Assembly (NCBI GenBank): GCA_034180005.1
Contig: JAXFPC010000024.1
Location: 6,246-38,245, forward strand
Reading direction: 5' to 3'
DNA from: Acidaminococcaceae bacterium
GTDB taxonomy: Bacteria; Bacillota; Negativicutes; Acidaminococcales; Acidaminococcaceae
Length of the DNA stretch: 32,000 bases
Position numbers and translations under genes: made by a program. The notes under the pieces were generated by a model. That model did no database searches. It was not told where the DNA came from and saw only the letters and a program-made list of their open reading frames with translations. Below are positions 3,496-31,048 of this stretch, in pieces. Position 1 is the stretch's first letter. The number at the start of each line of letters is the position of its first letter.

Positions 3496-6020
3496 TATCT
3501 AACCAACTCCTTCTTAATTGCATTCTCCACATATTCCAAGAACTTATCCCTGCCCTCGGTAATACATATATCCATATTCAGTATATACAAAGGTATCTCT
3601 CTTTCAGAATAAATAAACTCCGTAGGTATCTTAACTGCATCTTTGGCTGTGGCTATCATGGCTACAGCTTTAAGACTGCTCGCTCTCTCGTTAATATACT
3701 GCATCTCCAGCATTCCGTAGTCATGATGATCGGGATAGCGGACAGCTTCCAAAATATTAAGTCCTATACTGATCAAAGTCTGCTCAAAAGACGACGGATT
3801 GCCGATGGCTGAAAACACCATAACATCTTTGCCTTTCAGGTCCTCCAGCTCCTTAACACTTACGTTGATGCCTTTATACCAATCGGCTATCTCTACAAAA
3901 TTTTTAGGATGATGTACACTTTCAACTACCGGAGCGTTGCCGTTATAGTGTTCAATAGTATTGCGCAACTGCAGTCTGCTGATTTTGCTGCTCTGATCCG
4001 TTTTAGTCAACAAAAACAAGTCTCCCCTATCAAGATTTTTCAACGGTTCCCGCAAAGTTCCGCGCGGCAATACACAACCGTTGCCGAACATGTTCAGCGT
4101 ATCCACCAACACTACGTCCAAATCACGTTCCAGTTGCCAATGCTGATAACCGTCGTCCATGATTATCACTTCCGCTCCAAGCTTTTCTACAGCGTAGCGC
4201 CCGGTCACGGCACGATTTTTACCTATAACAACAGGTACGCCCGGCAAAGTTTTCGCCATCAAGTATGCTTCATCACCTGCCTCATAGGCTGTCATAAAAA
4301 TCTTTTCCCCGTTGGATACAACTCCTATATCCTTACCCCAGTGAGAACGATAGCCGCGGTTGAGAATAACAACTCTATACCCCATGTTTTTGATGATAAC
4401 AGCCATTTTTTGCGCCGTAGGCGTTTTACCTGTGCCGCCTACGGTTATATTGCCGATAGATATAACGCAGCAAGGCAATTTTTCCCTGCTTTTAAGTCCG
4501 GATCGATACAAACCGAGTTTGCAGCATACTCCGAATTCGTACAGATAAGAAATTCCCCGCAATAAACACAGAAGAAGCCATCCAAAAAAAGGCGTTTCAG
4601 GTCCGTAGGCAATCTGATAAACGTATTGTATAATTGCATCTCCGTGACGCAGACGCGCGCCGCCTTCATCTCTCAAATTGCGCGTATTGACAGGATACTC
4701 CGAAAATTCCCTCGCCGGAACGGCGGTAAATTCCAACAACTCTTTCAAATAATTTATACTTTTAACATCAGCTCCGCGGTTTTCTTTGATGACCTGAATC
4801 GAAGCTTGCCCCATTTTGTTACGCAGAGCATCATCGGCAGCAATGTCAAGCATTACCTTAGTAAGTTCCGGCCCATTATGAACCATCTTACAGCCGCCGG
4901 CTTTGCTGAGCAATGCATACGAATCTTTAAAATTCTGCATACTCGGGCCAACGAGAATCGGTTTGGCGTGAGCCGCCGGCTCCAAAACATTATGGCCGCC
5001 GGTGCCGCTGAATGATCCGCCGACATAGACAATATCGCCCACGGCATAAATGCGTCCCAACTCACCTATGGTGTCAAGGACTATAACAGGATACCTGCGT
5101 CCATCGGTCGCTTCCAACATCTGCGAACGATAACCCGTTTTGTAACCGAAAGTAGCTGCAAGCTTGGCAATTTCCGCGGCTCTCGCCGTTTTACGCGGAG
5201 CAATCACTAAAGCTGCATCTTTATGTGCCCTTTTGATTTCCCTAAATGATTCGATCAACAGTTTTTCTTCTCCGGGATGAGTCGAGCCGGCAATAATTAC
5301 CGGATAGCAGCCTTCTATGCCCAACTCTCGCCGATATTTCTCCAGATCTTCTTCAGTAACTTCCGCATATGTTTGATCGAATTTTGTATTACCCGTAACA
5401 AAAACTTTGCTGCGCTCAGCACCCAAATGAGTTATGTAATCGGCATCTATGCTGGACTGCATGCAAAAACGCGTTACCGTGTTCAGCATGTCATCCCAAA
5501 TTCCGTAGAGATACCGATAAGTTTTGACAGATTTTTCTGAGATGCGTCCGTTAACCATCATTACAGGAATATGACGCTCTCTGATCGCGCTGAGAAAATT
5601 TGGCCACAGCTCCGTTTCCACCGGCATAAACACTCCCGGGTGGATGCGCTGCACTAAAGATCCCGCTACAAACGGAAGATCCAACGGAAAATAAATAATA
5701 GCGTCAGCTTCCGGAATTATTTGTTTTGCCATATTGTATCCGCCCACTGTAAATGCGGAAACAAGAATAGGCCTGTCCGGCAATTCTTTCCGTATCTGCC
5801 TTACCAATGGGCTGGTAGCGACAATCTCACCCACAGAAGCTCCGTGAATCCAAATGCAATTCTTACGCATAACCTTCGCTATCTCTTCATCATCTACACA
5901 GCCTAGACTCTGCTTAAAACGCAGCTTAAACCCCTGTTCCGTAAACAGACGGTAGGTATAGTATGGTATGACGAACAGCACCAAAGCTATCAACAACAGA
6001 ATATTATAAAGTAAATACAT
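3495..6020 (-). CDS. waaA/lpxK: Fusion protein: N-terminal Kdo transferase (WaaA/KdtA) plus C-terminal tetraacyldisaccharide 4'-kinase (LpxK)
   Basis: One uninterrupted 841-842 aa ORF. N-terminal half: membrane anchor, WIHGASVGE and GGSFSGTGGHNVLEPAAH (WaaA-like). C-terminal half: hydrophobic helix FFGWLLLCLLRGISYLY, then the LpxK P-loop IGNITVGGTGKTP (GGTGKTP encoded at 4419..4439) and MDDGYQH. The track start at 6023 is TTG. The ATG at 6020 has GAGAGG 7 nt upstream. Confidence 0.85.
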   Translation of the reverse strand: MYLLYNILLLIALVLFVIPYYTYRLFTEQGFKLRFKQSLGCVDDEEIAKVMRKNCIWIHGASVGEIVATSPLVRQIRKELPDRPILVSAFTVGGYNMAKQIIPEADAIIYFPLDLPFVAGSLVQRIHPGVFMPVETELWPNFLSAIRERHIPVMMVNGRISEKSVKTYRYLYGIWDDMLNTVTRFCMQSSIDADYITHLGAERSKVFVTGNTKFDQTYAEVTEEDLEKYRRELGIEGCYPVIIAGSTHPGEEKLLIESFREIKRAHKDAALVIAPRKTARAAEIAKLAATFGYKTGYRSQMLEATDGRRYPVIVLDTIGELGRIYAVGDIVYVGGSFSGTGGHNVLEPAAHAKPILVGPSMQNFKDSYALLSKAGGCKMVHNGPELTKVMLDIAADDALRNKMGQASIQVIKENRGADVKSINYLKELLEFTAVPAREFSEYPVNTRNLRDEGGARLRHGDAIIQYVYQIAYGPETPFFGWLLLCLLRGISYLYEFGVCCKLGLYRSGLKSREKLPCCVISIGNITVGGTGKTPTAQKMAVIIKNMGYRVVILNRGYRSHWGKDIGVVSNGEKIFMTAYEAGDEAYLMAKTLPGVPVVIGKNRAVTGRYAVEKLGAEVIIMDDGYQHWQLERDLDVVLVDTLNMFGNGCVLPRGTLREPLKNLDRGDLFLLTKTDQSSKISRLQLRNTIEHYNGNAPVVESVHHPKNFVEIADWYKGINVSVKELEDLKGKDVMVFSAIGNPSSFEQTLISIGLNILEAVRYPDHHDYGMLEMQYINERASSLKAVAMIATAKDAVKIPTEFIYSEREIPLYILNMDICITEGRDKFLEYVENAIKKELVR

Positions 6021-6032
6021 CAACTGACCTCT

Positions 6033-14220: not shown

Positions 14221-14628
14221 TTATTTCATTTTTTCGATAACCTGAGCGGTTACATCCTGCCCGCCTTGAGGCACCGCTTCCTTGACGAGGATGGCGCCGA
14301 GATTTTTCTCTTTGGCAACCTGAGCCAGTGCGGTTTCAAAACTTGCTTTTAATTTATTCTGTGCCTCACTTTGAAGCAGACGAACTTTCGCAGAATAATC
14401 CTGGGCAATTTTAGCCTGCTCTTCCGCACTTTTTCCGGCAACTTCCTTTTCCATTTGCGCCTTCAGTTCTTCAACTTTCTTAGTTCCTTCTTCTTTTGTG
14501 GTCTTAACTATTGGCGCTTCACTTTCAACTTTTTTCATATCCACAGTACCGAATTCGGCAGTACGTCCTCCACAACCGAAGGAAAGCAAAGCTACTGCCA
14601 CCATAAGAGCAACTATAATTTTTTTCAT
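14221..14628 (-). CDS. skp: OmpH/Skp-family periplasmic chaperone (short paralog, possibly lipid-anchored)
   Basis: Signal peptide MKKIIVALMVAVALLSFGC. The body is E/K/A/Q-rich and helical. The C-terminal block VAKEKNLGAILVKEAVPQGGQDVTAQVIEKM is typical of OmpH. The ATG at 14628 has a GAGGG RBS. The track start at 14643 is GTG. Confidence 0.75.
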   Translation of the reverse strand: MKKIIVALMVAVALLSFGCGGRTAEFGTVDMKKVESEAPIVKTTKEEGTKKVEELKAQMEKEVAGKSAEEQAKIAQDYSAKVRLLQSEAQNKLKASFETALAQVAKEKNLGAILVKEAVPQGGQDVTAQVIEKMK

Positions 14629-14647
14629 TACCTGAACCCTCACTTAT

Positions 14648-15565
14648 TTATTTGTTCTTGATTTCTTTAACAACTTCATCAGTCAAATCATCAGCCTTGA
14701 CATTTACCTTGTACTCGTTGAAAACCACAGTATAACCTCTCTCTTGAGCTAATTTCATAACTGCGCTCTCAATATCGGCTTCTATCTTCTTCCTCAGCTC
14801 TTCATTTTTTTCCCGCTGTTTGCCGATTTCCTGGTCCATAATCTCAAGAGCTTTTTGCAAAGCCTGCGGGGCCGCGCCCAGTTTTTCCGAATATTCGTCA
14901 TCGCCTGCTGACAAATCGGCGCGAACTTTCTTTCCTAACTCTTCAGCCTTATCACCGAGTCGCTCGTTCATCACAAGCACATACGGTTGCATTTTTTCTT
15001 TCAGGTAAGCCTGCTTTTCTGCCGCAAGCAACTCCAGTTTTTTCCCAAAATCGTCCTGAGTGCTTTGTAAAATCTGCTCTACAGCTTGCCGCTCTTCCTG
15101 TTTCATTTTCACAGCTTCCAACTGCAGACGAAGATTGAATATTTTTAGACGATACTCCTGTTCCAACGCCTGTCGACGCTCATGAATCAGCGCGTCGGCC
15201 TCCCGCTCCAGAGCGGCAAACTGTCTTTCCAAACGTTTACCTTCTTCGGCATGAGCTTCAGCCATTTTAGCATTAAATTCCGCTTCTGCATAACTCTGTC
15301 TGCTTCGTTGCTGAAGTGCACGCAATTTTAACACGCTGTCCAGTTGAGATTTAGCACGCAGCGCCTGTGCGTCACGTTTGCGCAACAAATCCTCCACAAT
15401 CTTCTCATTACGGCGTAAGCTCTCCTCTTGAGGATGACCGGCCACAGCATCTTTCCAATTTACAACTGCCAGTTTATCTTTTCCCGATTTGCCGGAACCG
15501 CAGGCGGAAATCAGCAGTACAGCCGTAATCAAGATACTTATTCTCGCTACTAATGGCCTGCTCAA
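14648..15565 (-). CDS. skp: OmpH/Skp-family protein, double-length coiled-coil variant, predicted lipoprotein
   Basis: 305 aa. Signal peptide with lipobox LLISAC. OmpH-like ends (KLAVVNWKDAVAGHPQ ... LAQERGYTVVFNEYKVNVKADDLTDEVVKEIKN) flank about 230 aa of E/K/Q/A/L-rich helix. TTG start at 15565 preceded by AGGAGGAG. Confidence 0.7.
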   Translation of the reverse strand: MSRPLVARISILITAVLLISACGSGKSGKDKLAVVNWKDAVAGHPQEESLRRNEKIVEDLLRKRDAQALRAKSQLDSVLKLRALQQRSRQSYAEAEFNAKMAEAHAEEGKRLERQFAALEREADALIHERRQALEQEYRLKIFNLRLQLEAVKMKQEERQAVEQILQSTQDDFGKKLELLAAEKQAYLKEKMQPYVLVMNERLGDKAEELGKKVRADLSAGDDEYSEKLGAAPQALQKALEIMDQEIGKQREKNEELRKKIEADIESAVMKLAQERGYTVVFNEYKVNVKADDLTDEVVKEIKNK

Positions 15566-15610: not shown

Positions 15611-16096
15611 TTATTTTGCACTTTGTACAGCCTTGGCGACCTCATCGGTAATATCAACACCGCCGTAAATAACATTGCTCTTCTCTACCACTACCGAAAG
15701 ACCTTTTTTATCAGCCACTTTCTTAATGGTGTCTTCTATTTTTTTAAGAACAGGCTCCATCAATTCTTTTTCTTTGTTAGCCAAACGCTCCTCGATCTGG
15801 GTAAAATAGCGTTTCTTTTCCTCTTCGTTCATGCTCTTGGATTTCTCTTCAAAATCTTTTTGAGCGTTTTCAACTTCCGCTTTCATTGTATTGTTGACAT
15901 TTTGCAGATCAGGACTTTGACTGACAATCATACGGTAATTCACAACGCCTATAGCAGATTCACCGGCCGCAGCAGAAGCCACTTTGCTGAAACCGCTCTG
16001 ACTAAGAGATAATGCGAAGCAGCCCAAAACAAAAACTGCAGCTACAAACAAGGAAACCATTTTAACGTTTTTGGGATTACGCAAATATTCCATCAT
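15611..16096 (-). CDS. skp: OmpH/Skp-family periplasmic chaperone
   Basis: 161 aa. Signal peptide VSLFVAAVFVLGCFALSLS. Contains AIGVVNYRMIVSQSPDLQ and VADKKGLSVVVEKSNVIYGGVDITDEVAKAV, typical of OmpH. Confidence 0.8.
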   Translation of the reverse strand: MMEYLRNPKNVKMVSLFVAAVFVLGCFALSLSQSGFSKVASAAAGESAIGVVNYRMIVSQSPDLQNVNNTMKAEVENAQKDFEEKSKSMNEEEKKRYFTQIEERLANKEKELMEPVLKKIEDTIKKVADKKGLSVVVEKSNVIYGGVDITDEVAKAVQSAK

Positions 16097-16142: not shown

Positions 16143-16171
16143 ATTATATCAGTCTGCGCAGATTCTTTCAA
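16143..16171 (-). promoter_or_regulatory. Predicted sigma-A-type promoter for the skp-lpxD-lpxC-fabZ unit (-35 TTGAAA, 17-bp spacer, -10 TATAAT)
   Basis: Minus strand reads TTGAAA (16171..16166), GAATCTGCGCAGACTGA (17 nt, containing the palindrome TCTGCGCAGA), TATAAT (16148..16143). The -35 begins 6 nt after the upstream stop codon. Pattern match only. Confidence 0.55.
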
Positions 16172-16177
16172 GAAACA

Positions 16178-17452
16178 CTACAAATTTCCTATGACACGCA
16201 GATAAAACTCCTTGCCGCCGTAGACGTACTCCGTGCTTAAGAATTCATGGATCCTGTACCTTACAGCAAATTCATTTCTGTTCTGTTCGGAATAGTGCTC
16301 CGCTCGCAGCTTCCACTTCGGACCCAGTTCATACTCCAACCGGTAAACATTTTCTCGCGCCGGCATGCGGTATCTGTAACTCCACTTGCTGCGCCCCCAA
16401 TGATGGTTCATACCTACGCTTCCCTGCCAACGAACGTCATCAAAAACAAGTTCTCCCTCGGCAAAAAGTTCATTGCGTCCGGAAATAAATTTCCCGATAT
16501 GAGCCGTACCTGAAAGATTATTTTCTTTTCTGCCAATATCACCGTAACCTTCGAACCAAATCCTGTAATCGGACGAATGCAAAACGATATTGACCGTCAA
16601 ATCCGCTCCCGGTTCCAGAGTTACAGTGGGCTTTAAAGCGTAAATCTGCAATTCTCTTTCGCGAAGAAGTTTTTCCGTCAGCTGCTTCTCCAAAACATTT
16701 CTGTTTGCCTTAACATATTCCACCGGCATACCTCTGAGTTTTTCACACTCGGAAATATATTTATATTTCAATTTCATCAACAGAATATTTGGAATATCGT
16801 CGCTCCTAAGTTCGTATTTTATATTTCTGACAAGTTGTCCTACAGGAAATATGATCACCTGAACTGTCGTCGCTCCTCCGTCATATTGCAGCACATCGAC
16901 AGCAGCCTTAAACTCCGGCAAACTTTCTTCGACGCGCTCGCGCACTAACCGTCGCAAAACTCCCCCGGCCCAATCTCCGGCATCAACCGATGCGCCGTTG
17001 ATAGCCTTCGTCAGTTCACAGCGCAGCGACGGTAACCGACTCTCCAATTCTGCGGCTGTCGCATCGTCAATCCCGGAAAATTTCAGATCGATAACAGGCG
17101 AAACTATCACACTGCTCCATGGCTTGGCGTACATGCGCACTCGCAAAACTCTTCCGGCATCAAACTCAACATTTTTCAACTCATATCCGGTAAAAACTCT
17201 GTCTCCGATTTCGGCAAGAAGCCTGCTGTATTCGCCGCGCGAACTTTCTACAGCTACGCTCTCTTTGTCCAGAAAGAGTTGTTCACACACCACCTGCATA
17301 CTGGTGGCCATTTTTTTCAGAAGAAGATCGCTGGTACTGCCGCCCGTATCAATAACATCTACGTAAACTTCTTCAATATTTGCAGAAAAGGCCTGCTGCA
17401 CCGGCAGCAGGCTCACAAAAACTGCAGCTAAAACACTACGGTATAGCTTCAT
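16178..17452 (-). CDS. Secreted protein of unknown function (alpha/beta N-terminal region, beta-strand-rich C-terminus), bamA-adjacent
   Basis: Long ORF in an operon-like position. Signal peptide MKLYRSVLAAVFVSLLPVQQAFSA. I recognise no family motif. The last ~130 aa show alternating aromatic/polar strand patterns (YRIWFEGYG, KWSYRYRM, VYRLEYELG, FAVRYRI). The ATG at 17452 lies 19 nt after the bamA stop. The track start at 17467 is TTG. Confidence 0.8.
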   Translation of the reverse strand: MKLYRSVLAAVFVSLLPVQQAFSANIEEVYVDVIDTGGSTSDLLLKKMATSMQVVCEQLFLDKESVAVESSRGEYSRLLAEIGDRVFTGYELKNVEFDAGRVLRVRMYAKPWSSVIVSPVIDLKFSGIDDATAAELESRLPSLRCELTKAINGASVDAGDWAGGVLRRLVRERVEESLPEFKAAVDVLQYDGGATTVQVIIFPVGQLVRNIKYELRSDDIPNILLMKLKYKYISECEKLRGMPVEYVKANRNVLEKQLTEKLLRERELQIYALKPTVTLEPGADLTVNIVLHSSDYRIWFEGYGDIGRKENNLSGTAHIGKFISGRNELFAEGELVFDDVRWQGSVGMNHHWGRSKWSYRYRMPARENVYRLEYELGPKWKLRAEHYSEQNRNEFAVRYRIHEFLSTEYVYGGKEFYLRVIGNL

Positions 17453-17470
17453 GGATATCACCAACAAACT

Positions 17471-19309
17471 TTAGAATTGAGCACCGAAGCTGAAGTGGAA
17501 ACGTCCTCCGTTGGAGCCGTAACCGTAATCCAGCTTGATCGGACCCAGAGGAGACGTTATCCGCAGACCCAGACCGATGCTGCTTTTAATCTTGCTCATA
17601 TCAAAAGCATCCTCGTGACGTTTATCCCAAGCATAACCGTTGTCGGTAAAGACAACTCCCTGGACTTTCTTTATGATTGGGAAGCGATATTCCAGCGTCG
17701 CCTTAAGCATACTGTTGCCGCGATATTGATCGTCCTCATAGCCGCGCAATGTTTCAGCGCCACCCATGGTAAAGCGCTGACTGAGAGGCATATTACCGCC
17801 GGCATACCCGGCGCCCAAGTTAAGCGCCCAGACGCTCTCACCACCGCCGCGATAATAATAACGGTAATCGGCGGTAAACTTAGTGAAATCAAAATCTCCT
17901 CCCATGAACCCGGCGTGCTCCAAACTGTAGCTGATACGTTTTCCTTCATGGGGATCATAAATATTGTCACGGGAGTCAAAAATTCTTCCCAACGTCAAAC
18001 TGCGAGTGGTACCGAAATTTTCGCGCCGACGTTCTGCAGCAGTAGAAGGCATCCATGCCTCACGCATACTGTCAAAAGAATTTTCATAGTATTGTGTAGA
18101 ACCTTCATAACCGTCGGCTATGCCCTTGTATTTATCTTTACGATTTTTCAAAGTGATATAATTGCTGACGAACTGATTATCCGTCACGCGGCTTAAGGTC
18201 AGTTCCTGACCTGTACGCCGTCTGTCATAACGAGCGATTTCGTTCGCGCTTTGATTATAATCGGCGCATTCGTTGGTCATATCGTAAATATTGATAGTCG
18301 CGCTCGTTTCCTTGCTGTCAATCCAGGGACGAGTGTAGGAAAAATCATAGTTTTTATTGTCCTCACTGCCGAATTCCCAACGCAGATTAACCTTGTCGCC
18401 AGTGCCGCGGAAGTTTTTATCGCCGATAGATACCATACCTACAAAACCGTCAGTACTGCTGTAGCCGGCACCAATACCCAAAGTTCCCGTATTCATTTCC
18501 ACAACGGAAATCTCTACTTCCACAGAATTCGGTTCCCGTCCGGGATTCAGTTTAATGTTTACGTCCTCAAAAAATCCGAGATTATAAACTCTTTGCATAC
18601 TGCGACGAGCTTCTTTAGCATTGAAAGGTTTGCCTTTTTTCAGCTTCATTTCCCGCAGGATGACGTAATCTTTTGTTTTGCTGTTACCTTTGACTTTAAA
18701 ATCTTCTACAACGCCTTCGTTAACCTCAAGGTTGATAATCCCCGAAGGATCCATTTGCAGATTGCTGACGCGAGCCAAAATATAACCGTTGCTGCGATAC
18801 TCTTCCTCAAGCTTCTGTACACAGGCGTTAATATCTTTTAAATTAGCTATTTTGCCTTCTTCAAGATTAAAAAATCCCTGCAGTTTTTTGGTAGAAATAA
18901 CGGTGTTACCCGTTGGAGCCACTCCTTTGTAAACAGGATTTTCCTGTACTCTGTATACTACCTGAACTCCTTCCGGAACAATTCTGAAATCAGGACGAAT
19001 GTCATAAAAATAGCCTAATTCGTAAATTGACGCCAAATCTTCGGAAATAACGGATTCGGTCAACTCATTTCCCGGCTTTGATTTTATAGCTCCCTTTATG
19101 ACATCCTCCGCTATAAGCTTTTGTCCTTCGACTATATGCTTTGTGATCCTCTTGCCGATGTACGGAGCCAGCGCATTCTCTTTTTTCGTTTCCACGGCTC
19201 CTGCCCCGTTTGCAACAGCGGGCTTAATCTCCTCAGCAAAAACAGGAGCGGTCAAAAGTAATGACATCGCACCTATGGCTAACGGTTGCAACAGTAATTT
19301 CTTTTTCAA
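17471..19309 (-). CDS. bamA: Omp85-family outer membrane protein assembly factor BamA (three POTRA-like repeats)
   Basis: 612 aa. Signal peptide ending PVFAEE. Three repeats of about 75 aa with the POTRA pattern. The barrel carries a loop-6 RGY motif (GGAETLRGYEDDQYRG) and the C-terminal signature GGRFHFSFGAQF. TTG start preceded by GGGGGA. Confidence 0.92.
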   Translation of the reverse strand: MKKKLLLQPLAIGAMSLLLTAPVFAEEIKPAVANGAGAVETKKENALAPYIGKRITKHIVEGQKLIAEDVIKGAIKSKPGNELTESVISEDLASIYELGYFYDIRPDFRIVPEGVQVVYRVQENPVYKGVAPTGNTVISTKKLQGFFNLEEGKIANLKDINACVQKLEEEYRSNGYILARVSNLQMDPSGIINLEVNEGVVEDFKVKGNSKTKDYVILREMKLKKGKPFNAKEARRSMQRVYNLGFFEDVNIKLNPGREPNSVEVEISVVEMNTGTLGIGAGYSSTDGFVGMVSIGDKNFRGTGDKVNLRWEFGSEDNKNYDFSYTRPWIDSKETSATINIYDMTNECADYNQSANEIARYDRRRTGQELTLSRVTDNQFVSNYITLKNRKDKYKGIADGYEGSTQYYENSFDSMREAWMPSTAAERRRENFGTTRSLTLGRIFDSRDNIYDPHEGKRISYSLEHAGFMGGDFDFTKFTADYRYYYRGGGESVWALNLGAGYAGGNMPLSQRFTMGGAETLRGYEDDQYRGNSMLKATLEYRFPIIKKVQGVVFTDNGYAWDKRHEDAFDMSKIKSSIGLGLRITSPLGPIKLDYGYGSNGGRFHFSFGAQF

Positions 19310-19328: not shown

Positions 19329-19820
19329 TTATTTCGAATTGCGCAGTTCAACCCTAGCCGCCTGCACAAGGCGACGAACCTCGTCGCGTGATACGTCAAG
19401 ATTATCAACGGGTATATTCTGCTTGACTTCGGAAGCAACAGTTTTATGCTCCTCCTTAAAAGAACTATTCTCAAGCGCAGGTTTCTGTTCTGCAGCTGTA
19501 GCCTGAATCTGCGTTCTTACCGGCTCCGATATGGCAACCCGGTCGCTTTGAGGCGCGATGTTTTTTCTGGCGTAAAACCATCCGCTTAAACCAGAAATAA
19601 CAAGCAAAACTGAACAGAGCACTGCCAAAAGCTGCCTGTTCCAACACCACACCGAAGAATCCCTGCGGCGCAAATTTTTCAACTCGGCCTCTGCAAGCAT
19701 AAGATCCAGCTCTCCACGCAACTCTCTTTTATCGAGAAAACTTTTCTCAGCGTTTTCCAAACTGTTTTTCGCAGCGGTAATACGCCGGAGCAAAGTTCTG
19801 CCGTTCTCAGCCACCTGCAC
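19329..19820 (-). CDS. Single-pass membrane protein of unknown function (candidate anti-sigma or regulatory partner, speculative)
   Basis: 163 aa. Helical charged N-terminal region (LENAEKSFLDKRELRGELDLMLAEAELKNLRRR), one TM helix (LLAVLCSVLLVISGLSGWFYA), and an ~80-aa polar tail. GTG starts at 19820 and 19814 follow AAGGAGG. The stop is 19 nt from the bamA start. Confidence 0.7.
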   Translation of the reverse strand: MQVAENGRTLLRRITAAKNSLENAEKSFLDKRELRGELDLMLAEAELKNLRRRDSSVWCWNRQLLAVLCSVLLVISGLSGWFYARKNIAPQSDRVAISEPVRTQIQATAAEQKPALENSSFKEEHKTVASEVKQNIPVDNLDVSRDEVRRLVQAARVELRNSK

Positions 19821-19991
19821 GACCTCCTTTAAGTTTTACTCGGATGATACCTCTTTCAAAAACATTCTGACTTTTTATATAGAGTCATACTTTTTTATGA
19901 ATTATCTACATTGATTTAATTAAAATATGCCGGCATTTCCTCAAAATTACTCATTATTTCTCAAATTATCAATAATATCATGCTGAAATCA

Positions 19992-20627
19992 TCATGAATT
20001 ATTCAAGTCATGCATGAACCTCGACAACATTCCGCGTATACGTCGCACACCCTTCTTCTGCAACCTGTAAACATGCCCCAAGCTTACGTTAATGGTATCT
20101 GCTACAGCTTGAGCCGTTCTGTCTTCGATATAAATTTCCTGCAACACCTGCTGCTCCTTAGCCGGCAATCTTTGCAACGCCTGTTCTACTTTCTCTTTTA
20201 CTGCAAGCTGTTCAAATATCTCCGCCGGAGAACAAGCGTCGGACGGCAACACATCAGCAAGAGTGACTCCCTGATACAGTTCGCTTTCCAAAGAAAGGTC
20301 AACATTTTTACTGCAGGAACGAAGATAATCTATCATACTTCCTTTAATGCGGTAGGAAGCGAATAAACTGAAAGCCACTTTGCGAGTATGATCGTAGCTG
20401 TCAGCTGCTTCCAAAAGTCCAACCATGCCTTCTTGAATAAGTTCCATAGTTTCAGTCTCAGGGAGTTTGAAAGCAACAGCTATTTTAAATACCAACGGTT
20501 GGTACGAAAGCATCAGCTTTTGGTGCGCCTGTAAATCACCCCGAGCCGACAACTCCCATAAAGCCATTTCTTCTTCTGTTCTTAACAACGGTTGCTTGCG
20601 CAATTCCGCCAAATATTCCTGCAGCAT
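19992..20627 (-). CDS. RNA polymerase sigma factor, sigma-70 family (non-ECF-looking, group-3-like)
   Basis: 211 aa. Region 1.2/2.1-like LRTEEEMALWELSARGDLQAHQKLMLSYQPLVFKIA, region 2.2 ELIQEGMVGLLEAADSYD, region 4 HTH TAQAVADTINVSLGHVYRLQKKGVRRIR. ATG with a GGGAG RBS, 23 nt after the tamB stop. Confidence 0.85.
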   Translation of the reverse strand: MLQEYLAELRKQPLLRTEEEMALWELSARGDLQAHQKLMLSYQPLVFKIAVAFKLPETETMELIQEGMVGLLEAADSYDHTRKVAFSLFASYRIKGSMIDYLRSCSKNVDLSLESELYQGVTLADVLPSDACSPAEIFEQLAVKEKVEQALQRLPAKEQQVLQEIYIEDRTAQAVADTINVSLGHVYRLQKKGVRRIRGMLSRFMHDLNNS

Positions 20628-20650: not shown

Positions 20651-23600
20651 TTAAAAGGTTAGCTTATATTCCACCCCGTACCAATGTTCTTTTTCTTTCA
20701 GCTTGCTGCTGTTGTTAGAATACGTTATGTTAAAATTATCGCTTATATCGTACTGCCCGAAGATACTTCTGTCAATACCGTCAAAGCTTGTCGTGTAACC
20801 AATCATAAAACGATCAGTTAAATATTTGCTCACCAGAATATTATACTGTCTCCGCTCATCCTTTGTAAGATCGCGTACTCTGTAGCTGCTGCCGGAATAT
20901 CCGATGCCCGAGCGAACCCGTCCGTTATAAATCTTAAATTGGTCTAAGCCCAGCCATTTCTCGACAAAATCCTCCACTTCTCCAAGAATTGTCATCTGGA
21001 GTCCTGCTGTCAGCAAATTAGCCATGTCGTCTCCGGTAATATAATCATTGCCAGCAATATCTCTCTGCAAAGTCAACATTCTCACTATAGTGTTTTTATC
21101 GAGAGGAGGATCGCTGCTTAGCTGCAGATCCATATTGTCGAGTTGTCCGGCAATGCGCATGGCAATATTATACCTGTTGAACCGCGCTCTGCTTTCCAAA
21201 TTTATATTGGGAATAAAGCTGCCTGCATCAATCCAAACAAGCCTTGCTTCATCAACTTTAAAGTTGGTGCGCAGATAAGTTACTGTTCCTTTCGTCGACT
21301 TTACGGATCCTTCTATCACGGGGAAAAGCGTGCTGCCCTTCAGCTTCAGACCTCCGCTCACCCAAAGATCATACAAAAAACTGTTGTAAAAATGAATCTT
21401 CGGTCCCAGCTCTATCTGAAGATCCATACCGTAATTGGAACTTCCTTCGCCGAATTCAGGTATCGTAGGCATATTTACCAAAACATCGTCAAATTTTATG
21501 CCACCCTTTATCATAGGTCTGAAAGCACTCGGCGGCGGATTATTTCCTTTTCTGTTTCTGAAATCAAAATATTTTTGCGGCAAAAGTTCAACATCCCCGG
21601 TTATCTTTCCGCTGAAGAGCGATGTATGAATCTCCGCGTTATCCGCTTTCACCTGCAGACTGTACGCCGTATCGGCAGATGTATTCAATGCATAAGTTCC
21701 TGCCGCATAAAGTGTTCCTTTGCCAAGTTTTGCCGACAACTCGGATAAATTGATACTGTTACCGTTAAATTCGGAGCGCAGATTCAGCTGTTCAAAAACT
21801 GTGGAAACATCCTTCAATTTAAGACTGCCGTCTTTAATCTGGATCGATCCGTACAGCAACGGCGATTCAAGTGTTCCGTCAATTTGTACTTTGCCTTGAA
21901 TATCCCCTATGCCCCACTCGACAAAATCTGTTAATGCTGGCAACAAGCCCAAACGAGCATCATCAAAATCAACATCTATCTTCATATGCGCATCTGCATG
22001 TCTGCGCTCTTCCTTGGGCCGGAAAAGATCCAGCGGAATCTCGCCCGACGCTCCCACATTATAAACATCCTTGGATAAAAGCAATTGGTGTAGCTTGAGG
22101 GAATCATCTTTCAGCGACAACACGGCTGTTGCTTTGTCAAGACTTACTCCGTCGATGCTACCGTCGTAAATTTCCACCGATGCTGAACCTGTAGGTGCGT
22201 CAAAACTTCCCTTTAATTCCGCACGTAAATCCGTCGTGCCTTTAATATCCCGCGGCACTTTCATCATAGCGGTAACTATTCCCGGGTCAGCTTTGCGAGC
22301 CGTTAATCCGATATTATATTCCCTTTTTTCAAAATCAACGTCGCCGTTTACAAGAACTATGCCCCTATCTTCAACGCTCTGTTTTTCCTGAAGCTTGACA
22401 TCGTCGAAATAAAGTTTTCCTTCACGCAGTCGTCCCTTAAAATTCAACTGATGGTACAACAGCCGGCTGAGTTTAACGTCATTGGCTGTAACGTCTATGT
22501 CCACACCTGCATTTTCGTCAGAATGCATAGTTATTTTTCCGTTAACAATTCCTTCTATATCATGCTCTACGCGACACATCCTCAAAATACCGCCGACGTC
22601 TCCCCACATGGTCAGTATATCTCCGGAAAGAAAACCGTCCGGAAGACTGATATTTAAATCCGCACTGTACATACCGTAATCAACCGTATTATTTTTATGA
22701 GGTTGCTTGAAAGATACGTTGACTAAATTTTTTCCCTTGCCATTTAAATTGACTCTTCCCTCTACATCGGTAATTGTCTCTCCGTTTATGCTTATATTCT
22801 CTGCCGAAACATTGCCGACAAAAAGAGGTTCTGACAAAGTGCCGCGCAGTTTTCCGGAAGCATTCACCAAACCGGCAAGTACAACGTTGTCACCAGTAAA
22901 AGGTATATTCCCCAAATCTACATTTTGAGACTGCACATCAAAATTTAAACTCTTATCCTGCAGCATGCTGCCGTTCAATACAACCTTGGCGGCATAAGCG
23001 TCCACGCGGAAATCTTTCAGCGTAAGCACTCCACTGTCATAAACGTAACTGCCTGTAATACTGTCAAAAAGATTATCGTCTATGCTGCCGTCCGAAGCAT
23101 AGAGATTCCCCTGCGCATACGGCGCGTCCATACTGCCGCGAATATGCAACTCATTATCCACATTGCCTGTCAAAGGTACGCCACTGTGAAGATGCTCAGC
23201 CAGCGGCTCCAAACGTACGGCATCGGTCTTAAGCGTCAAATCAAGCTGAGGAGTTTCTTCGTTCAAATTTACTGTTCCGCTTAAAATATGCTTGCCCTGC
23301 GACATATTGAAAACAATATTTTCAATGGCAGCAATGCCGTCTTTCAGCACTAAGCTGCCCACAGCACTTTTTACAGGCTGTTTCATGATATCCGCATCAC
23401 GAAGTTCCAAAGATACTTCCATCTCCGGACGATTGATGCTGCCGCGAAGCGCAAATCTTGAGGAAACGTTTCCACCGCTGCATTCAACGCCTACAGCTTC
23501 AAGCAAAGGCTGCAACCGGAAAGCATTCATTTTGCCGACGATATCCATGTTGCCGTTTTTTTCTATATACCCAACCGCATTTATGCTTCCGTCTCCGGAA

Positions 23601-24934
23601 AAAGCGCTGAAATGTTCCGCGTAAAGACGTTCATTTTTATACTTACCGTCAAAAGCCAACTTATGAATTTTTACACCGCGAAAATCAAGCGCCAAACTTT
23701 CTGCAGCCACGTTGACATCAAATCCGTCGTCTGCACGACGTACCAAAAATGCCGCATTTCCGTCCATAGTTACAGCATTTTGCGGCGATGCTTGCGGAGC
23801 ATACCGAATATTTTTCAGTTCAAGATCTCCCGCTGCAGTTTCTGTTGCTGTATTATATGTCCCGCCAAATATAAATGTCCCTTCACCGTAAGTTCCCGTT
23901 CCGTTACTTATATTAAGAATCCTCTCACGGTAAGAAAAAGGCAGCTTAACACCTGTAAAAGCGTGACCGTCATACATGAACCGCTCTGCTGAAACACTGC
24001 CTTCACCGCTTACATTCTCCGGATTTTTCAAATCGGCAGTGCCGCTCAGGAGCAGCCCTTGTCCATCCACTTCGATTGACAGCTTATCTGTTTGTACTAC
24101 ACTGTCGCTGCTTGTAATTTTTCCGCTCAGTTTTATTTTATGTTCGATATCTCGCAGCGCCAACACGCCTGTCACATCGTTCAAAAAACCTGTTCCCGAA
24201 TAGCGCACCTTTTCGCCGTCATTATCATAAATGAGGCGCACTGATTCCACAATACCCGTCATGTCGGCGACACCGCAGTATTCCTGCAGCATCCGAGCAT
24301 AAGAGTCCAGTATGAGCCTTTCACTTGACGCGGTAATATTTCCTGCGCCTTTAGTAGTCACCAATCCTTTCAAAAGAACTTTATTCTCTCCCTCTTGCAG
24401 CTGCAGTTCAGCTGCAAATTTAGGATTGCCTGTTCCGCTGATATCACCGTCTACCGAAAAAAATTTGCTTTCTTCCGTCGTGCTGACATGCAGCCCGCCG
24501 TTTTTTATTTCCAACAACCCGTAAAAAGGTGTGCTGTCAGAATCAGTACTTTTCAAAAATTCCGCTGTGTTCCATTTTTTGTTCTCATCTCGTTTCAGAT
24601 ACACTTGAGGCGCTTGCAATGTTACCCTACTCAGAGAACGTAAAGGATCGCTCAGACCAAGCCATGGTCTGAAACGCAGCTGCACCAGAGGCAGTTCCGC
24701 AATTTTGTCTCCTATCGCATCTTTTATCACAACGTCGCTTAGTTCCGCTTCAAGTCCTCCGTTCCAAACTATTTTGCCGACACTGACTTTTCCATTGATG
24801 TAATCTGTCGCTCTCTCTTCAATTACAGGCAGTAATTCTTTGAAATATTCCGGAGCGACGTCCTTAACCAAGAAGGCGTACCCCGCCGATAAAACTACGC
24901 CAATCAAACAAAAAATTTTTAAAAACAGCTTCAT
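20651..24934 (-). CDS. tamB: Translocation and assembly module protein TamB (AsmA-like, DUF490 C-terminus)
   Basis: About 1427 aa. N-terminal anchor MKLFLKIFCLIGVVLSAGYAFLV, a very long beta-rich body with G/N/D/S-rich repeats, and the C-terminal end HWYGVEYKLTF. The ATG at 24934 has GGAG 6 nt upstream. The track start at 24970 is TTG without an RBS. Confidence 0.85.
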   Translation of the reverse strand: MKLFLKIFCLIGVVLSAGYAFLVKDVAPEYFKELLPVIEERATDYINGKVSVGKIVWNGGLEAELSDVVIKDAIGDKIAELPLVQLRFRPWLGLSDPLRSLSRVTLQAPQVYLKRDENKKWNTAEFLKSTDSDSTPFYGLLEIKNGGLHVSTTEESKFFSVDGDISGTGNPKFAAELQLQEGENKVLLKGLVTTKGAGNITASSERLILDSYARMLQEYCGVADMTGIVESVRLIYDNDGEKVRYSGTGFLNDVTGVLALRDIEHKIKLSGKITSSDSVVQTDKLSIEVDGQGLLLSGTADLKNPENVSGEGSVSAERFMYDGHAFTGVKLPFSYRERILNISNGTGTYGEGTFIFGGTYNTATETAAGDLELKNIRYAPQASPQNAVTMDGNAAFLVRRADDGFDVNVAAESLALDFRGVKIHKLAFDGKYKNERLYAEHFSAFSGDGSINAVGYIEKNGNMDIVGKMNAFRLQPLLEAVGVECSGGNVSSRFALRGSINRPEMEVSLELRDADIMKQPVKSAVGSLVLKDGIAAIENIVFNMSQGKHILSGTVNLNEETPQLDLTLKTDAVRLEPLAEHLHSGVPLTGNVDNELHIRGSMDAPYAQGNLYASDGSIDDNLFDSITGSYVYDSGVLTLKDFRVDAYAAKVVLNGSMLQDKSLNFDVQSQNVDLGNIPFTGDNVVLAGLVNASGKLRGTLSEPLFVGNVSAENISINGETITDVEGRVNLNGKGKNLVNVSFKQPHKNNTVDYGMYSADLNISLPDGFLSGDILTMWGDVGGILRMCRVEHDIEGIVNGKITMHSDENAGVDIDVTANDVKLSRLLYHQLNFKGRLREGKLYFDDVKLQEKQSVEDRGIVLVNGDVDFEKREYNIGLTARKADPGIVTAMMKVPRDIKGTTDLRAELKGSFDAPTGSASVEIYDGSIDGVSLDKATAVLSLKDDSLKLHQLLLSKDVYNVGASGEIPLDLFRPKEERRHADAHMKIDVDFDDARLGLLPALTDFVEWGIGDIQGKVQIDGTLESPLLYGSIQIKDGSLKLKDVSTVFEQLNLRSEFNGNSINLSELSAKLGKGTLYAAGTYALNTSADTAYSLQVKADNAEIHTSLFSGKITGDVELLPQKYFDFRNRKGNNPPPSAFRPMIKGGIKFDDVLVNMPTIPEFGEGSSNYGMDLQIELGPKIHFYNSFLYDLWVSGGLKLKGSTLFPVIEGSVKSTKGTVTYLRTNFKVDEARLVWIDAGSFIPNINLESRARFNRYNIAMRIAGQLDNMDLQLSSDPPLDKNTIVRMLTLQRDIAGNDYITGDDMANLLTAGLQMTILGEVEDFVEKWLGLDQFKIYNGRVRSGIGYSGSSYRVRDLTKDERRQYNILVSKYLTDRFMIGYTTSFDGIDRSIFGQYDISDNFNITYSNNSSKLKEKEHWYGVEYKLTF

Positions 24935-25012
24935 GTTCTGCTCCGATATCCGTTCCATGTAAATCAACAAAAATAATTACCACTATTCTACTTCGACACA
25001 AGGTATAATCTT

Positions 25013-29392: not shown

Positions 29393-31048
29393 TTATTTAA
29401 CAGTCAAGACTACTTCCACTTCGCCATCAACAATAAAATCAAAAGGATACTTCTTTTTATAGGGAGAACCGTGCAGCAATCCTTCCAACCCGGTATCAGG
29501 CTGCTCTTCATCAGGTCGCTTACCGCTGGATAAGTCAATAATTATCTCATTATTTTTATCGGCGTTATTAATATTTTTTACATAATCAAAAAGTGTCCTC
29601 TGCTTTTCTTTCTTCTTAGCTGCCGGAGCACCCTCTTCTTTTTGTTTGCGCAGAAGATCTATTACCCAAGCGAAGCTGCTGCCGCCTCTGACATTCAGTG
29701 CCAATTTCGGTTCGCTGTATTTCTCGGGCACGATAAAATTTATCTTTCTCTGAAAAGATTCTCCCCTATAAGGCTTCAGTTCAACGGTGAACTCGACTTT
29801 TTCCCCCGGTTTCACCACTGACTTATCCGTCTTTACACTGATTATCTCGGCGACCTGCACAGCTTCCGACAATTCCGCCTCAACATTAACACCGTACACA
29901 TCGATATCGGTAAATTTATTTTTCATCAACACGGAAGTAGCATCCGACAGCTCAACATTGATATTTTTCAATAAATTACTTACGGCATAATACATATTTT
30001 CTCTTTTAATTTCCAGCATTTTTTTATCTTGATCTCTGCCGGTAATAGTGAAAACCACTTTAGCCGTACCTCCGCCGTTTCTGTCCATAGTTTTGCTGGC
30101 AGTATTAACAACAGCCGCGTCGACTACAGCCGGAAAAAGTTCCGCGTCTTCAATAACATTGACTCTTGTACTGTTGGTAACGCCTCTGTCTTTATCGGCG
30201 ACGGAAACAAAAACCGGAACTGTCGGAGGCAATTTCCCGATGACTCCGCCTATACCACTGAAACGATCCTGATCAAAATGCCCCAAAGCGTCACCGATGG
30301 TACCGACTTTATAGCTACTCTGCAAATTAGGAACACACCCAAGAATCCAGGATTTAGTCATAAAAAATCCGCTGTTTCCGCGTTGCATGAAAGGATGACC
30401 GAACGCAAGCACTCTCCCGTTGTCATCAGTCCAGGTGACGGTACCCAAAGCGCCCAGAGTAAGATCACCTTTCATAATAGCAACACCCACAGCACTGCCT
30501 GGTTCAAGTTTAGTCTTCGAAGTAACATCTGTGCTTCCCGATCCTACAGGTTGAAAACCGAAACCGTTCAAACGCTCCTGCAAATATTCCAATCCGTACT
30601 CGGTAAATCCTCCCGCCATCAAAGGTGTACCTTGAGGAATCCAATGAGCGTCTCTTCGCGCAGGTTCATCCAACATCCGCAGCATGCTCCCTATGGGAGT
30701 AAGAAAACAATAATGCGGATCGTTAAAAGTTCTTCCGTAAGCAACAGCGCCCACCAGCCTGCCGTCGACATAAACAGGGCTGCCGCTCATACCTTGAGCT
30801 ACTCCGCCCGTTTTATCTATCAACGAACCGTACAAACGCACAAAAATATTGTATCCCGCCGCTTCACTGCCGGTAACTCCGAGGATTTCCACATCAAAAT
30901 CTTCAATGGTATCACCTGATATAACCGTCTTTCCGATACCGTGCATCCCGGGTTTTATATCTTTGATCGGCATCAAAGATATATTGGCGGCAACTGCCGT
31001 CAAATTAACGCAGAACATGATAAGTGTCAAAATTATCTTAAAAGCCAT
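29393..31048 (-). CDS. Secreted peptidase S55 (SpoIVB-like) domain protein
   Basis: 551 aa. N-terminal signal/anchor MAFKIILTLIMFCVNLTAVAA. Serine block GGVAQGMSGSPVYVDGRLVGAVAYG (GMSGSP encoded at 30776..30793). His block LGALGTVTWTDDNGRVLAFGHPF (AFGHPF encoded at 30389..30406). The C-terminal half is beta-rich, followed by a K/E-rich segment. ATG with a GGGAG RBS. Confidence 0.75.
   Translation of the reverse strand: MAFKIILTLIMFCVNLTAVAANISLMPIKDIKPGMHGIGKTVISGDTIEDFDVEILGVTGSEAAGYNIFVRLYGSLIDKTGGVAQGMSGSPVYVDGRLVGAVAYGRTFNDPHYCFLTPIGSMLRMLDEPARRDAHWIPQGTPLMAGGFTEYGLEYLQERLNGFGFQPVGSGSTDVTSKTKLEPGSAVGVAIMKGDLTLGALGTVTWTDDNGRVLAFGHPFMQRGNSGFFMTKSWILGCVPNLQSSYKVGTIGDALGHFDQDRFSGIGGVIGKLPPTVPVFVSVADKDRGVTNSTRVNVIEDAELFPAVVDAAVVNTASKTMDRNGGGTAKVVFTITGRDQDKKMLEIKRENMYYAVSNLLKNINVELSDATSVLMKNKFTDIDVYGVNVEAELSEAVQVAEIISVKTDKSVVKPGEKVEFTVELKPYRGESFQRKINFIVPEKYSEPKLALNVRGGSSFAWVIDLLRKQKEEGAPAAKKKEKQRTLFDYVKNINNADKNNEIIIDLSSGKRPDEEQPDTGLEGLLHGSPYKKKYPFDFIVDGEVEVVLTVK

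What the first reader, a model, noticed from the sequence alone, without database searches (positions are those of the whole stretch)
16178..17452. Unrecognised secreted 424-aa protein co-located with bamA: possible lineage-specific BAM/TAM partner
The ORF starts 19 nt after the bamA stop, so it is likely co-transcribed. It has a clear signal peptide (MKLYRSVLAAVFVSLLPVQQAFSA). I recognise no family signature.

The first ~290 residues read as mixed alpha/beta modules, for example VIDLKFSGIDDATAAELESRLPSLRCELTKAI and TVQVIIFPVGQLVRNIKYELR. They are loosely reminiscent of POTRA-type beta-alpha-alpha-beta-beta units.

The last ~130 residues show the alternating aromatic/polar pattern of amphipathic beta strands: YRIWFEGYG, WQGSVGMNHHW, KWSYRYRM, VYRLEYELG, WKLRAEHY, FAVRYRI, EYVYGG, FYLRVIG. 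That is too short for a 16-strand Omp85 barrel.

No BamB-E or TamA homologues are visible in the window. The position between bamA and three skp genes therefore suggests an accessory role in OMP assembly. One caveat: the protein ends in ...RVIGNL, not in the usual terminal aromatic residue.
Basis: partly seen in the sequence, partly recalled or inferred. Interest (0 to 1): 0.7.

Follow-up and report, generated by a model that had tools for sequence, protein, structure and literature searches.

The report
SonA: small POTRA-barrel protein beside BamA
The gene is real and encodes an outer-membrane protein with three POTRA-like domains and a small 10-strand barrel that always sits just after bamA; a 2026 paper already described and named this protein SonA, and what it does in the cell is still unknown.

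Summary
Window 16178-17452 (minus strand) encodes a 424-aa secreted protein that starts 18 nt after the bamA stop and lies upstream of three skp genes. It matches no Pfam, NCBIfam or PDB sequence.

An AlphaFold2 model (pLDDT 94.8) shows three beta-alpha-alpha-beta-beta modules followed by 10 amphipathic strands. Foldseek's best matches are TamA, BamA, CdiB and Toc75. The barrel folded alone best matches a designed 10-strand transmembrane barrel.

The protein is not unrecognised. It is a full-length homologue (30% identity, E 3e-66) of Acetonema longum F7NM22. That protein was named SonA in Nat Commun 2026 (PMC13018214) and described as a 10-strand barrel with three POTRA domains in a conserved sonB-bamA-sonA-skp1 cluster.

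The order tamB, sigma factor, sonB, bamA, sonA, skp x3, lpxD is kept in all 82 related loci wherever the contig reaches.

The "BAM/TAM partner" reading is plausible but unproven. A BamA co-immunoprecipitation in A. longum did not recover SonA.

- The three modules are an internal triplication.
- They have no profile similarity to BamA.
- The barrel shows weak profile similarity to the C-terminal strands of TamB.
- skp1 has its own conserved promoter.

Verdict: already known, moderate-to-low interest.

The parts
16178..17452 (-). sonA orthologue, 424 aa plus stop codon
   Evidence: ORF. Identical to an NCBI hypothetical protein from an Acidaminococcaceae MAG. 30% identical over 382 aa to A. longum SonA F7NM22, E 3e-66.
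17381..17452 (-). Sec-type signal peptide (residues 1 to about 24, MKLYRSVLAAVFVSLLPVQQAFSA); no lipobox
   Evidence: Read from the sequence. Lowest pLDDT blocks of the model (74 and 69). The A. longum SonA expression construct omits residues 1-22 as the signal sequence.
17114..17377 (-). POTRA-like module 1 (residues 26-113; beta-alpha-alpha-beta-beta)
   Evidence: DSSP of the AF2 model. hhalign to module 2 gives 97.2% probability.
16838..17104 (-). POTRA-like module 2 (residues 117-205)
16571..16834 (-). POTRA-like module 3 (residues 207-294)
16181..16570 (-). 10-strand amphipathic beta-barrel domain (residues 295-424) with very short loops
   Evidence: 10 strands in both models. Hydrophobic/polar alternation in all 10 strands across 64 sequences. 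Best PDB match of the isolated domain is the designed 10-strand TM barrel 8uzl, E 4e-5, TM 0.52.
17471..19309 (-). bamA (612 aa; POTRA domains plus Omp85 barrel)
   Evidence: PF01103, PF07244 and TIGR03303. 48% identical to A. longum BamA.
19329..19820 (-). sonB-like ORF (163 aa): about 60 cytoplasmic residues, one TM helix, periplasmic tail
   Evidence: Same position as the A. longum 186-aa gene between the sigma gene and bamA. BLASTP E 3e-10.
19992..20627 (-). sigma-70-family sigma factor that always precedes sonB-bamA-sonA
   Evidence: Synteny.
20651..24970 (-). tamB (1439 aa)
   Evidence: PF04357.
15611..16096 (-). skp1 (OmpH family)
   Evidence: PF03938, E 7.7e-18.
14648..15565 (-). skp2 (long OmpH-family paralogue)
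   Evidence: PF03938, E 3.4e-8.
14221..14643 (-). skp3 (OmpH-family lipoprotein-like paralogue)
   Evidence: PF03938, E 2.4e-6, below the gathering score. Conserved position.
16143..16171 (-). Conserved extended -10 promoter (TTGAAA-17-TGaTATAAT) between the sonA stop and skp1
   Evidence: Present in 78 of 78 related loci.
19877..19909 (-). Conserved promoter-like motif upstream of sonB (GTrAAA ... GAyTATA)
   Evidence: Alignment of 17 sigma-sonB spacers. Coordinates.

Best explanation
The ORF is the Acidaminococcaceae orthologue of SonA, the protein first described in Acetonema longum (F7NM22).

Shown here or in the paper:
- It is exported by Sec.
- Its last 130 residues form a minimal 10-strand transmembrane beta-barrel with a charged, closed-looking lumen.
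- Three tandem POTRA-like modules, which arose by internal triplication, would project into the periplasm.
- It is the last gene of a sonB-bamA-sonA unit. That unit follows a dedicated sigma-factor gene and precedes a separately promoted skp cluster.

Inferred mechanism (about 0.4 on its own):
- The barrel is only an anchor. It is too small, and its loops too short, to act as an insertase or a pore.
- The POTRA arm acts as an auxiliary periplasmic docking platform. It would bind unfolded outer-membrane proteins, Skp-client complexes or the TamB end by beta-augmentation next to BamA.
- It would thus stand in for the BamB-E and TamA proteins that diderm Firmicutes lack, through transient rather than stable contacts.
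For: Homology to SonA:
- phmmer E 1.8e-54 to P0135. P0135 is UniRef100_F7NM22, A. longum.
- BLASTP 30% identity over 382 aa, E 3e-66.

Gene order:
- A. longum has the same order: TolC, TamB, sigma, 186-aa gene, BamA, SonA, Skp x3, LpxD.
- All 82 loci keep this order wherever the contig extends.
- bamA followed by sonA also holds in the most divergent members, at 20-25% identity.

Structure:
- The AF2 model has pLDDT 94.8, three beta-alpha-alpha-beta-beta modules and 10 strands.
- Foldseek top hits are TamA, BamA, CdiB and Toc75, E 2e-11 to 1e-7.
- The barrel-only model has pLDDT 93.6. Its best match is the designed 10-strand TM barrel 8uzl, and the matches below it are almost all TM barrels.
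- All 10 strands are amphipathic, with conserved charged residues (E, R, H) on one face.

From the paper: SonA has a predicted 10-strand barrel with three POTRA domains. It is co-expressed with BamA and SonB and is protected from trypsin by liposomes.
Against: No function has been shown for SonA in any organism.

- BamA co-IP with cross-linking in A. longum did not recover SonA.
- SonA is reported absent from V. parvula and A. fermentans, so it is dispensable in some lineages.
- No sequence-profile similarity to BamA POTRAs or the BamA barrel was found (hhalign probability at most 5%). The POTRA assignment therefore rests on predicted fold and topology only.
- Barrel closure was inferred from strand count and fold matches, not checked in coordinates.
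Confidence: 0.85

Rival explanations
1. SonA is a stable, stoichiometric subunit of the Firmicute BAM complex and binds the BamA POTRA domains.
For: The genes are adjacent, 18 nt apart, in every locus examined. SonA is co-expressed with BamA in A. longum. BamB-E are absent from diderm Firmicutes.
Against: Co-IP with cross-linking and Western blots using anti-BamA serum found no SonA and no higher-mass BamA species. SonA is reported missing in two species that keep BamA.
Confidence: 0.15
2. SonA is the functional equivalent of TamA. Its three POTRA domains dock the periplasmic end of TamB. Its small barrel pairs with the amphipathic C-terminal strands of TamB to form a hybrid barrel that lets TamB reach the outer membrane.
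For: - The top Foldseek hit is TamA, which also has three POTRA domains.
- Diderm Firmicutes have TamB but no TamA, and tamB lies in the same cluster.
- The SonA barrel profile matches the last 60 residues of the Negativicute TamB (hhalign probability 68-80%, E 1.4e-5 to 4.9e-5). Reversed and shuffled controls score 19.5 or less, against 39-43 observed.
- In E. coli, the six C-terminal strands of TamB form a hybrid barrel with TamA strand beta1.
Against: - In the Selenomonadaceae locus L085, sonA stays with bamA while tamB is not adjacent.
- TamB is conserved in species reported to lack SonA.
- In Borrelia, TamB is modelled and measured to dock on BamA itself.
- The hhalign signal may reflect only a shared beta-signal-like strand and hairpin periodicity.
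Confidence: 0.2
3. SonA is a self-inserting pioneer that seeds conversion of the outer spore membrane into an outer membrane during germination. This is the model proposed in the 2026 paper.
For: Liposomes protect SonA from trypsin at 30 C, and SonA is up-regulated during germination.
Against: The paper itself reports no correlation between SonA presence and the ability to sporulate. The family is abundant in Phascolarctobacterium and Succiniclasticum gut and rumen genomes.
Confidence: 0.1
4. SonA is an ordinary small outer-membrane protein whose job is unrelated to OMP or lipid assembly, for example a structural, adhesion or peptidoglycan-contacting role. On this view it is carried along in the envelope gene cluster.
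For: No direct functional data exist. Small 8-10-strand barrels are often just anchors.
Against: The bamA-sonA pair persists even where the rest of the cluster is dispersed and at 20% sequence identity. In every solved match, POTRA-type modules belong to Omp85-type machines.
Confidence: 0.08

Closest known systems
SonA (Acetonema longum F7NM22; Nat Commun 2026, PMC13018214)
   Same: Full-length homologue (30% identity, E 3e-66). Nearly the same length (424 vs 426 aa). Both have a Sec signal peptide, three beta-alpha-alpha-beta-beta modules and a 10-strand barrel. Both lie between bamA and skp1, with sonB and a sigma-factor gene upstream.
   Different: Only the host lineage differs: an uncultured relative of Phascolarctobacterium in the Acidaminococcaceae rather than the Sporomusaceae. 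The sequence has diverged to 30% identity. No experimental data exist for this orthologue.
TamA and BamA (Omp85 superfamily)
   Same: N-terminal periplasmic POTRA-fold repeats (three, as in TamA and in the neighbouring BamA) followed by a C-terminal outer-membrane barrel. These are the best Foldseek matches (E 2e-11 to 1e-8).
   Different: The barrel has 10 strands, not 16. The loops are 2-6 residues long, so there is no L6 loop or VRGY/F motif. There is no PF01103 or PF07244 hit, and no profile similarity to the BamA of the same genomes (hhalign probability at most 5%).
TamB C-terminal six-strand domain (DUF490 end)
   Same: Weak profile similarity between SonA strands beta4-beta8 and the last 60 residues of TamB. 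Both carry a beta-signal-like strand (E-x-[GAS]-hydrophobic-x-Y-x-hydrophobic in SonA strand beta8).
   Different: SonA is a separate, Sec-exported protein predicted to form a closed barrel on its own. TamB's strands are an appendage of a lipid-transport groove and need a partner barrel.
BamB-E accessory lipoproteins of Proteobacteria
   Same: A possible analogous accessory role in OMP assembly. Encoded next to bamA and skp.
   Different: SonA is not a lipoprotein, shows no homology to BamB-E, and is an integral barrel protein. No BamA association has been detected so far.

Membership tests
SonA (F7NM22 family of diderm Firmicutes) | Full-length sequence homology to A. longum F7NM22 | tested here: met
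   phmmer E 1.8e-54. P0135 is F7NM22. BLASTP E 3e-66, residues 47-424 against 47-426.
SonA (F7NM22 family of diderm Firmicutes) | Three N-terminal beta-alpha-alpha-beta-beta (POTRA-type) domains | tested here: met
   AF2 DSSP elements. The modules are homologous to one another. Foldseek matches TamA and BamA.
SonA (F7NM22 family of diderm Firmicutes) | C-terminal 10-strand beta-barrel | tested here: met
   10 strands in the full-length and domain-only models. Amphipathic alternation. Best match is a designed 10-strand TM barrel. Closure was not inspected in coordinates.
SonA (F7NM22 family of diderm Firmicutes) | Gene located directly downstream of bamA and upstream of skp1, with sonB upstream of bamA | tested here: met
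   Window layout. A. longum locus. 82 loci. SonB-like ORF, E 3e-10.
SonA (F7NM22 family of diderm Firmicutes) | Insertion into lipid bilayers and outer-membrane location | not testable with these tools
   Only in vitro liposome protection for the A. longum protein has been reported.
Omp85 superfamily (BamA, TamA, TpsB, Toc75) | At least one N-terminal POTRA domain | tested here: inconclusive
   Fold and topology match. No PF07244 hit at E up to 1. hhalign to BamA POTRAs gives probability below 1%.
Omp85 superfamily (BamA, TamA, TpsB, Toc75) | 16-strand barrel matching PF01103, with the conserved L6 loop | tested here: not met
   10 strands with loops of 2-6 residues. No PF01103 hit. hhalign of barrel against BamA barrel gives probability 0.9-5%.
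BamB-E / BAM accessory lipoproteins | Lipobox cysteine, homology to BamB/C/D/E, and co-purification with BamA | tested here: not met
   The signal peptide ends AFSA and has no cysteine. No family hit. Co-IP in A. longum was negative (literature).
TamB C-terminal domain (PF04357 end) | Significant profile match to the TamB C-terminus | tested here: inconclusive
   hhalign probability 68-80%, E 1.4e-5 to 4.9e-5 over 60 columns, with clean controls. Only 7 of 64 family members give weak PF04357 hits, best E 0.006.

The most novel reading that the evidence does not exclude
SonA is the missing outer-membrane receptor for TamB in diderm Firmicutes. On this reading it is a "split TamA": its 10-strand barrel is completed or opened by the amphipathic C-terminal strands of TamB, and its three POTRA domains hold the TamB groove. 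The adjacent sigma factor and the bitopic SonB would form a dedicated sigma/anti-sigma-like switch controlling bamA-sonA expression.
Probability: 0.12. Interest if true: 0.75.

Novelty: already known. Interest (0 to 1): 0.3.

Why it matters
Diderm Firmicutes lack BamB-E, TamA and the Lol pathway, so how their BamA and TamB work is an open question. SonA is the only conserved, unexplained POTRA-bearing outer-membrane protein encoded in the bamA operon, which makes it the obvious candidate for a lineage-specific helper.

For this window, the practical result is an annotation. A "hypothetical protein" can be named SonA, and its upstream neighbour can be named SonB.

The extra observations give concrete handles for experiments on a protein whose function is unknown:
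- the modules arose by internal triplication;
- the barrel shows TamB-like C-terminal strand similarity;
- skp1 has a separate conserved promoter;
- a sigma factor and a bitopic SonB always precede bamA.

Tried and rejected
- Pfam, NCBIfam and PDB sequence searches with the single protein and with a 64-sequence profile found nothing significant. The only items were a designed TM barrel at E 0.002 and scattered sub-threshold TamB and OMP_b-brl hits.
- Profile-profile comparison with the BamA of the same genomes found no similarity. I therefore rejected "degenerate BamA paralogue detectable by sequence".
- The search for related loci with the diverse alignment failed because it had no conserved stretch. 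A tighter alignment worked but returned only Acidaminococcaceae.
- The second homologous-protein search, run with the profile, returned essentially the same close relatives and added nothing on taxonomy.
- The paper's supplementary tables are not held, so I could not read its per-species SonA list.
- I considered that the C-terminal region might be an open TamB-like beta-taco rather than a barrel. I rejected this as less likely because the isolated domain matches closed TM barrels and the A. longum protein is protected by liposomes.
- I considered a porin or an enzyme. No support: there was no family hit, the barrel is too small, and its lumen is charged.

Full report
**1. The observation**

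The ORF lies on the minus strand at 16178-17452 (ATG start, 424 aa). The mechanical ORF list extends it to a TTG at 17467, but all close and distant homologues align from the ATG.

The bamA stop codon occupies 17471-17473. The intergenic gap is 18 nt and holds a GGTGA Shine-Dalgarno-like motif 5 nt before the ATG.

The upstream gene is a bona fide BamA: PF01103, three PF07244 stretches, and TIGR03303 at 303.5 bits against a cutoff of 297. The next three genes downstream match OmpH/Skp, the third just below the Pfam threshold.

The rest of the window is the classical envelope cluster of diderm Firmicutes. In order it contains NAGPA, an S55 peptidase, mlaEFD, tolC, tamB, a sigma factor, a 163-aa ORF, bamA, the target, skp x3, lpxD, an acyltransferase, lpxC, fabZ, lpxA, lpxI, lpxB, msbA, a waaA-lpxK fusion, kdsB, kdsA and kdsD.

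The target protein is identical to an NCBI "hypothetical protein" from an Acidaminococcaceae MAG. It has no Pfam, NCBIfam or PDB sequence match.

**2. What it is**

*The family.* An exhaustive phmmer search found 235 clusters (at 50% identity) of relatives. Most are 420-440 aa and align end to end.

*The full-length model.* A 64-sequence alignment gave an AlphaFold2 model with mean pLDDT 94.8. The model has:
- a signal-peptide helix;
- three beta-alpha-alpha-beta-beta modules (residues 28-111, 120-203 and 210-293);
- ten strands of 8-12 residues (residues 296-423) joined by loops of 2-6 residues.

Foldseek against the PDB returns only Omp85-superfamily proteins at the top: TamA, BamA, CdiB and Toc75, with E 2e-11 to 1e-7. 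The global TM-scores are low, as expected for flexible multi-domain chains.

*The barrel alone.* The C-terminal domain folded on its own has pLDDT 93.6. Its best match is the designed 10-strand transmembrane barrel 8uzl (E 4e-5, TM 0.52). PcoB, KdgM/NanC, OmpA and Ail follow, and nearly all the remaining matches are membrane barrels too.

In all ten strands, across 64 sequences, one face is hydrophobic. The other face is polar and carries conserved E, R and H residues (E301, E328, E332, R383, E385, E394, E408, R419). This suggests a filled, salt-bridged lumen rather than a pore.

**3. It is already described**

A literature search found Nat Commun 2026, PMC13018214. The paper names two proteins of the A. 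longum bamA operon.
- SonB is F7NM24.

The order sonB-bamA-sonA-skp1 is reported syntenic across 36 Negativicutes. SonA and SonB are reported missing only from V. parvula and A. fermentans.

Representative P0135 from my search is UniRef100_F7NM22. It matches the window protein at E 1.8e-54, and by BLASTP at E 3e-66 with 30% identity over residues 47-424.

The A. longum contig has exactly the window's gene order. The 163-aa ORF at 19329-19820 is a weak but colinear homologue of the A. longum gene in the SonB position (E 3e-10).

**4. Synteny**

In 80 Acidaminococcaceae loci and the two A. longum contigs, the order is tamB, sigma, sonB, bamA, sonA, skp1-3, lpxD. It is kept wherever the contig extends.

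In the same genomes SonA diverges faster (42-63% identity to the window) than BamA (54-76%).

The bamA-then-sonA pair also holds in the most divergent members examined:
- L083 and L084, at about 20% identity;
- a Selenomonadaceae contig where sigma, sonB, bamA and sonA stay together although tamB and skp are not adjacent;
- MAGs labelled Armatimonadota, "bacterium" and "Firmicutes bacterium". These labels are unverified.

**5. Details that go beyond the paper**

(a) The three modules are homologous to one another (hhalign probability 94-97%, E 1e-7 to 3e-11). They show no profile similarity to the BamA POTRAs of the same genomes, and the barrel shows none to the BamA barrel. SonA is therefore an Omp85 look-alike at the level of fold and architecture, not a detectable sequence paralogue.

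(b) The SonA barrel profile matches the last 60 residues of the Negativicute TamB, covering strands beta4-beta8 (probability 68-80%, E 1.4e-5 to 4.9e-5).
- Reversed and column-shuffled controls score 19.5 or less, against 39-43 observed.
- Strand beta8 carries a conserved beta-signal-like pattern, E-x-[GAS]-hydrophobic-x-Y-x-hydrophobic. It aligns with the terminal strand of TamB.
- In E. coli TamAB, that terminal strand pairs with TamA beta1 to form a hybrid barrel.
- This is a lead, not proof of homology or interaction.

(c) The sonA-skp1 spacer carries a near-consensus extended -10 promoter at 16171-16143, TTGAAA-17-TGaTATAAT. It is present in 78 of 78 loci, including A. longum. So skp1 has its own promoter, and sonA ends the bamA unit.

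(d) A sigma-70-family gene and the bitopic SonB always precede bamA.
- SonB has about 60 N-terminal residues before its single TM helix and no lipobox. This is an anti-sigma-like topology rather than that of a classical lipoprotein.
- The paper does not mention the sigma gene.
- A conserved promoter-like motif lies upstream of sonB.

**6. Mechanism**

The following is shown, here or in the paper. SonA is a Sec-exported protein with a 10-strand barrel and three POTRA-fold modules. It is co-transcribed or co-expressed with BamA and is protected by liposomes in vitro.

The following is inferred. The barrel is an anchor, and the POTRA arm is a periplasmic docking platform for unfolded OMPs, Skp-client complexes or TamB, working beside BamA through transient contacts.

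The evidence against a stable complex is twofold. BamA co-IP with cross-linking did not recover SonA, and two Negativicutes are reported to lack SonA while keeping BamA and TamB.

The TamA-like reading remains open but is weakened by the Selenomonadaceae arrangement.

**7. Verdict**

- The claim that the protein is unrecognised has been overtaken by the 2026 description of SonA.
- The partner role is still a hypothesis.
- Novelty: already known. This is another orthologue of a named but functionally uncharacterised family.

Noticed in passing
window 16143-16171 (minus strand): A near-consensus extended -10 promoter (TTGAAA-17-TGaTATAAT) lies in the 81-nt sonA-skp1 spacer. The same element occurs in 78 of 78 related loci, including A. 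longum. skp1 therefore appears to have its own conserved promoter, rather than only sharing the bamA promoter as the 2026 paper's promoter prediction states.
   Followed up: yes
window 19329-19820 and 19992-20627 (minus strand): A sigma-70-family gene and the SonB-like ORF always precede bamA. This holds even in a Selenomonadaceae contig where tamB and skp are elsewhere. SonB has about 60 cytoplasmic residues, one TM helix, and no N-terminal signal peptide or lipobox. That topology looks like an anti-sigma factor, not the "OM lipoprotein" of the paper, which never mentions the sigma gene.
   Followed up: partly
window 19877-19909 (minus strand): A promoter-like motif (GT[G/A]AAA, about 17-18 nt, GA[T/C]TATA) is conserved in the sigma-sonB spacer from Phascolarctobacterium to Acetonema. 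Which sigma factor reads it is unknown.
   Followed up: partly
window 16250-16429 (SonA residues 342-401) versus 20654-20830 (TamB C-terminus): The SonA barrel profile resembles the last 60 residues of TamB (hhalign E 1.4e-5; controls clean). SonA strand beta8 carries a beta-signal-like motif that aligns with the terminal strand of TamB.
   Followed up: partly
window 29393-31048 (minus strand): This is an S55 (SpoIVB-like) peptidase gene in the same cluster. Its A. longum counterpart, F7NM31, was one of only two proteins that co-eluted with BamA in the published co-IP. The same gene sits upstream of tamB in locus L086.
   Followed up: no
P0279, P0280 and P0281 (Selenomonadaceae MAG proteins); locus L085 6001-7281: Some SonA family members are named "acylphosphatase" in NCBI MAG annotations. 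This is probably a misannotation: the copy encoded next to bamA in L085 has no Pfam hit on record, and the family as a whole shows no recurrent enzyme-family match.
   Followed up: partly
loci L086, L087, L088: Family members with the same bamA-sonA-skp order occur in MAGs labelled Armatimonadota, "bacterium" and "Firmicutes bacterium". SonA may therefore extend beyond the 36 Negativicutes surveyed in the paper. The taxonomy labels were not verified.
   Followed up: partly
window 3495-6023 (minus strand): A single 842-aa ORF fuses a Kdo transferase (Glycos_transf_N) domain to LpxK.
   Followed up: no
window 14648-15565 (minus strand): The second skp paralogue is unusually long (305 aa). It has a lipoprotein-like N-terminus (LISAC) and a long coiled-coil insertion, and it is the fastest-diverging of the three skp genes across the related loci.
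   Followed up: no
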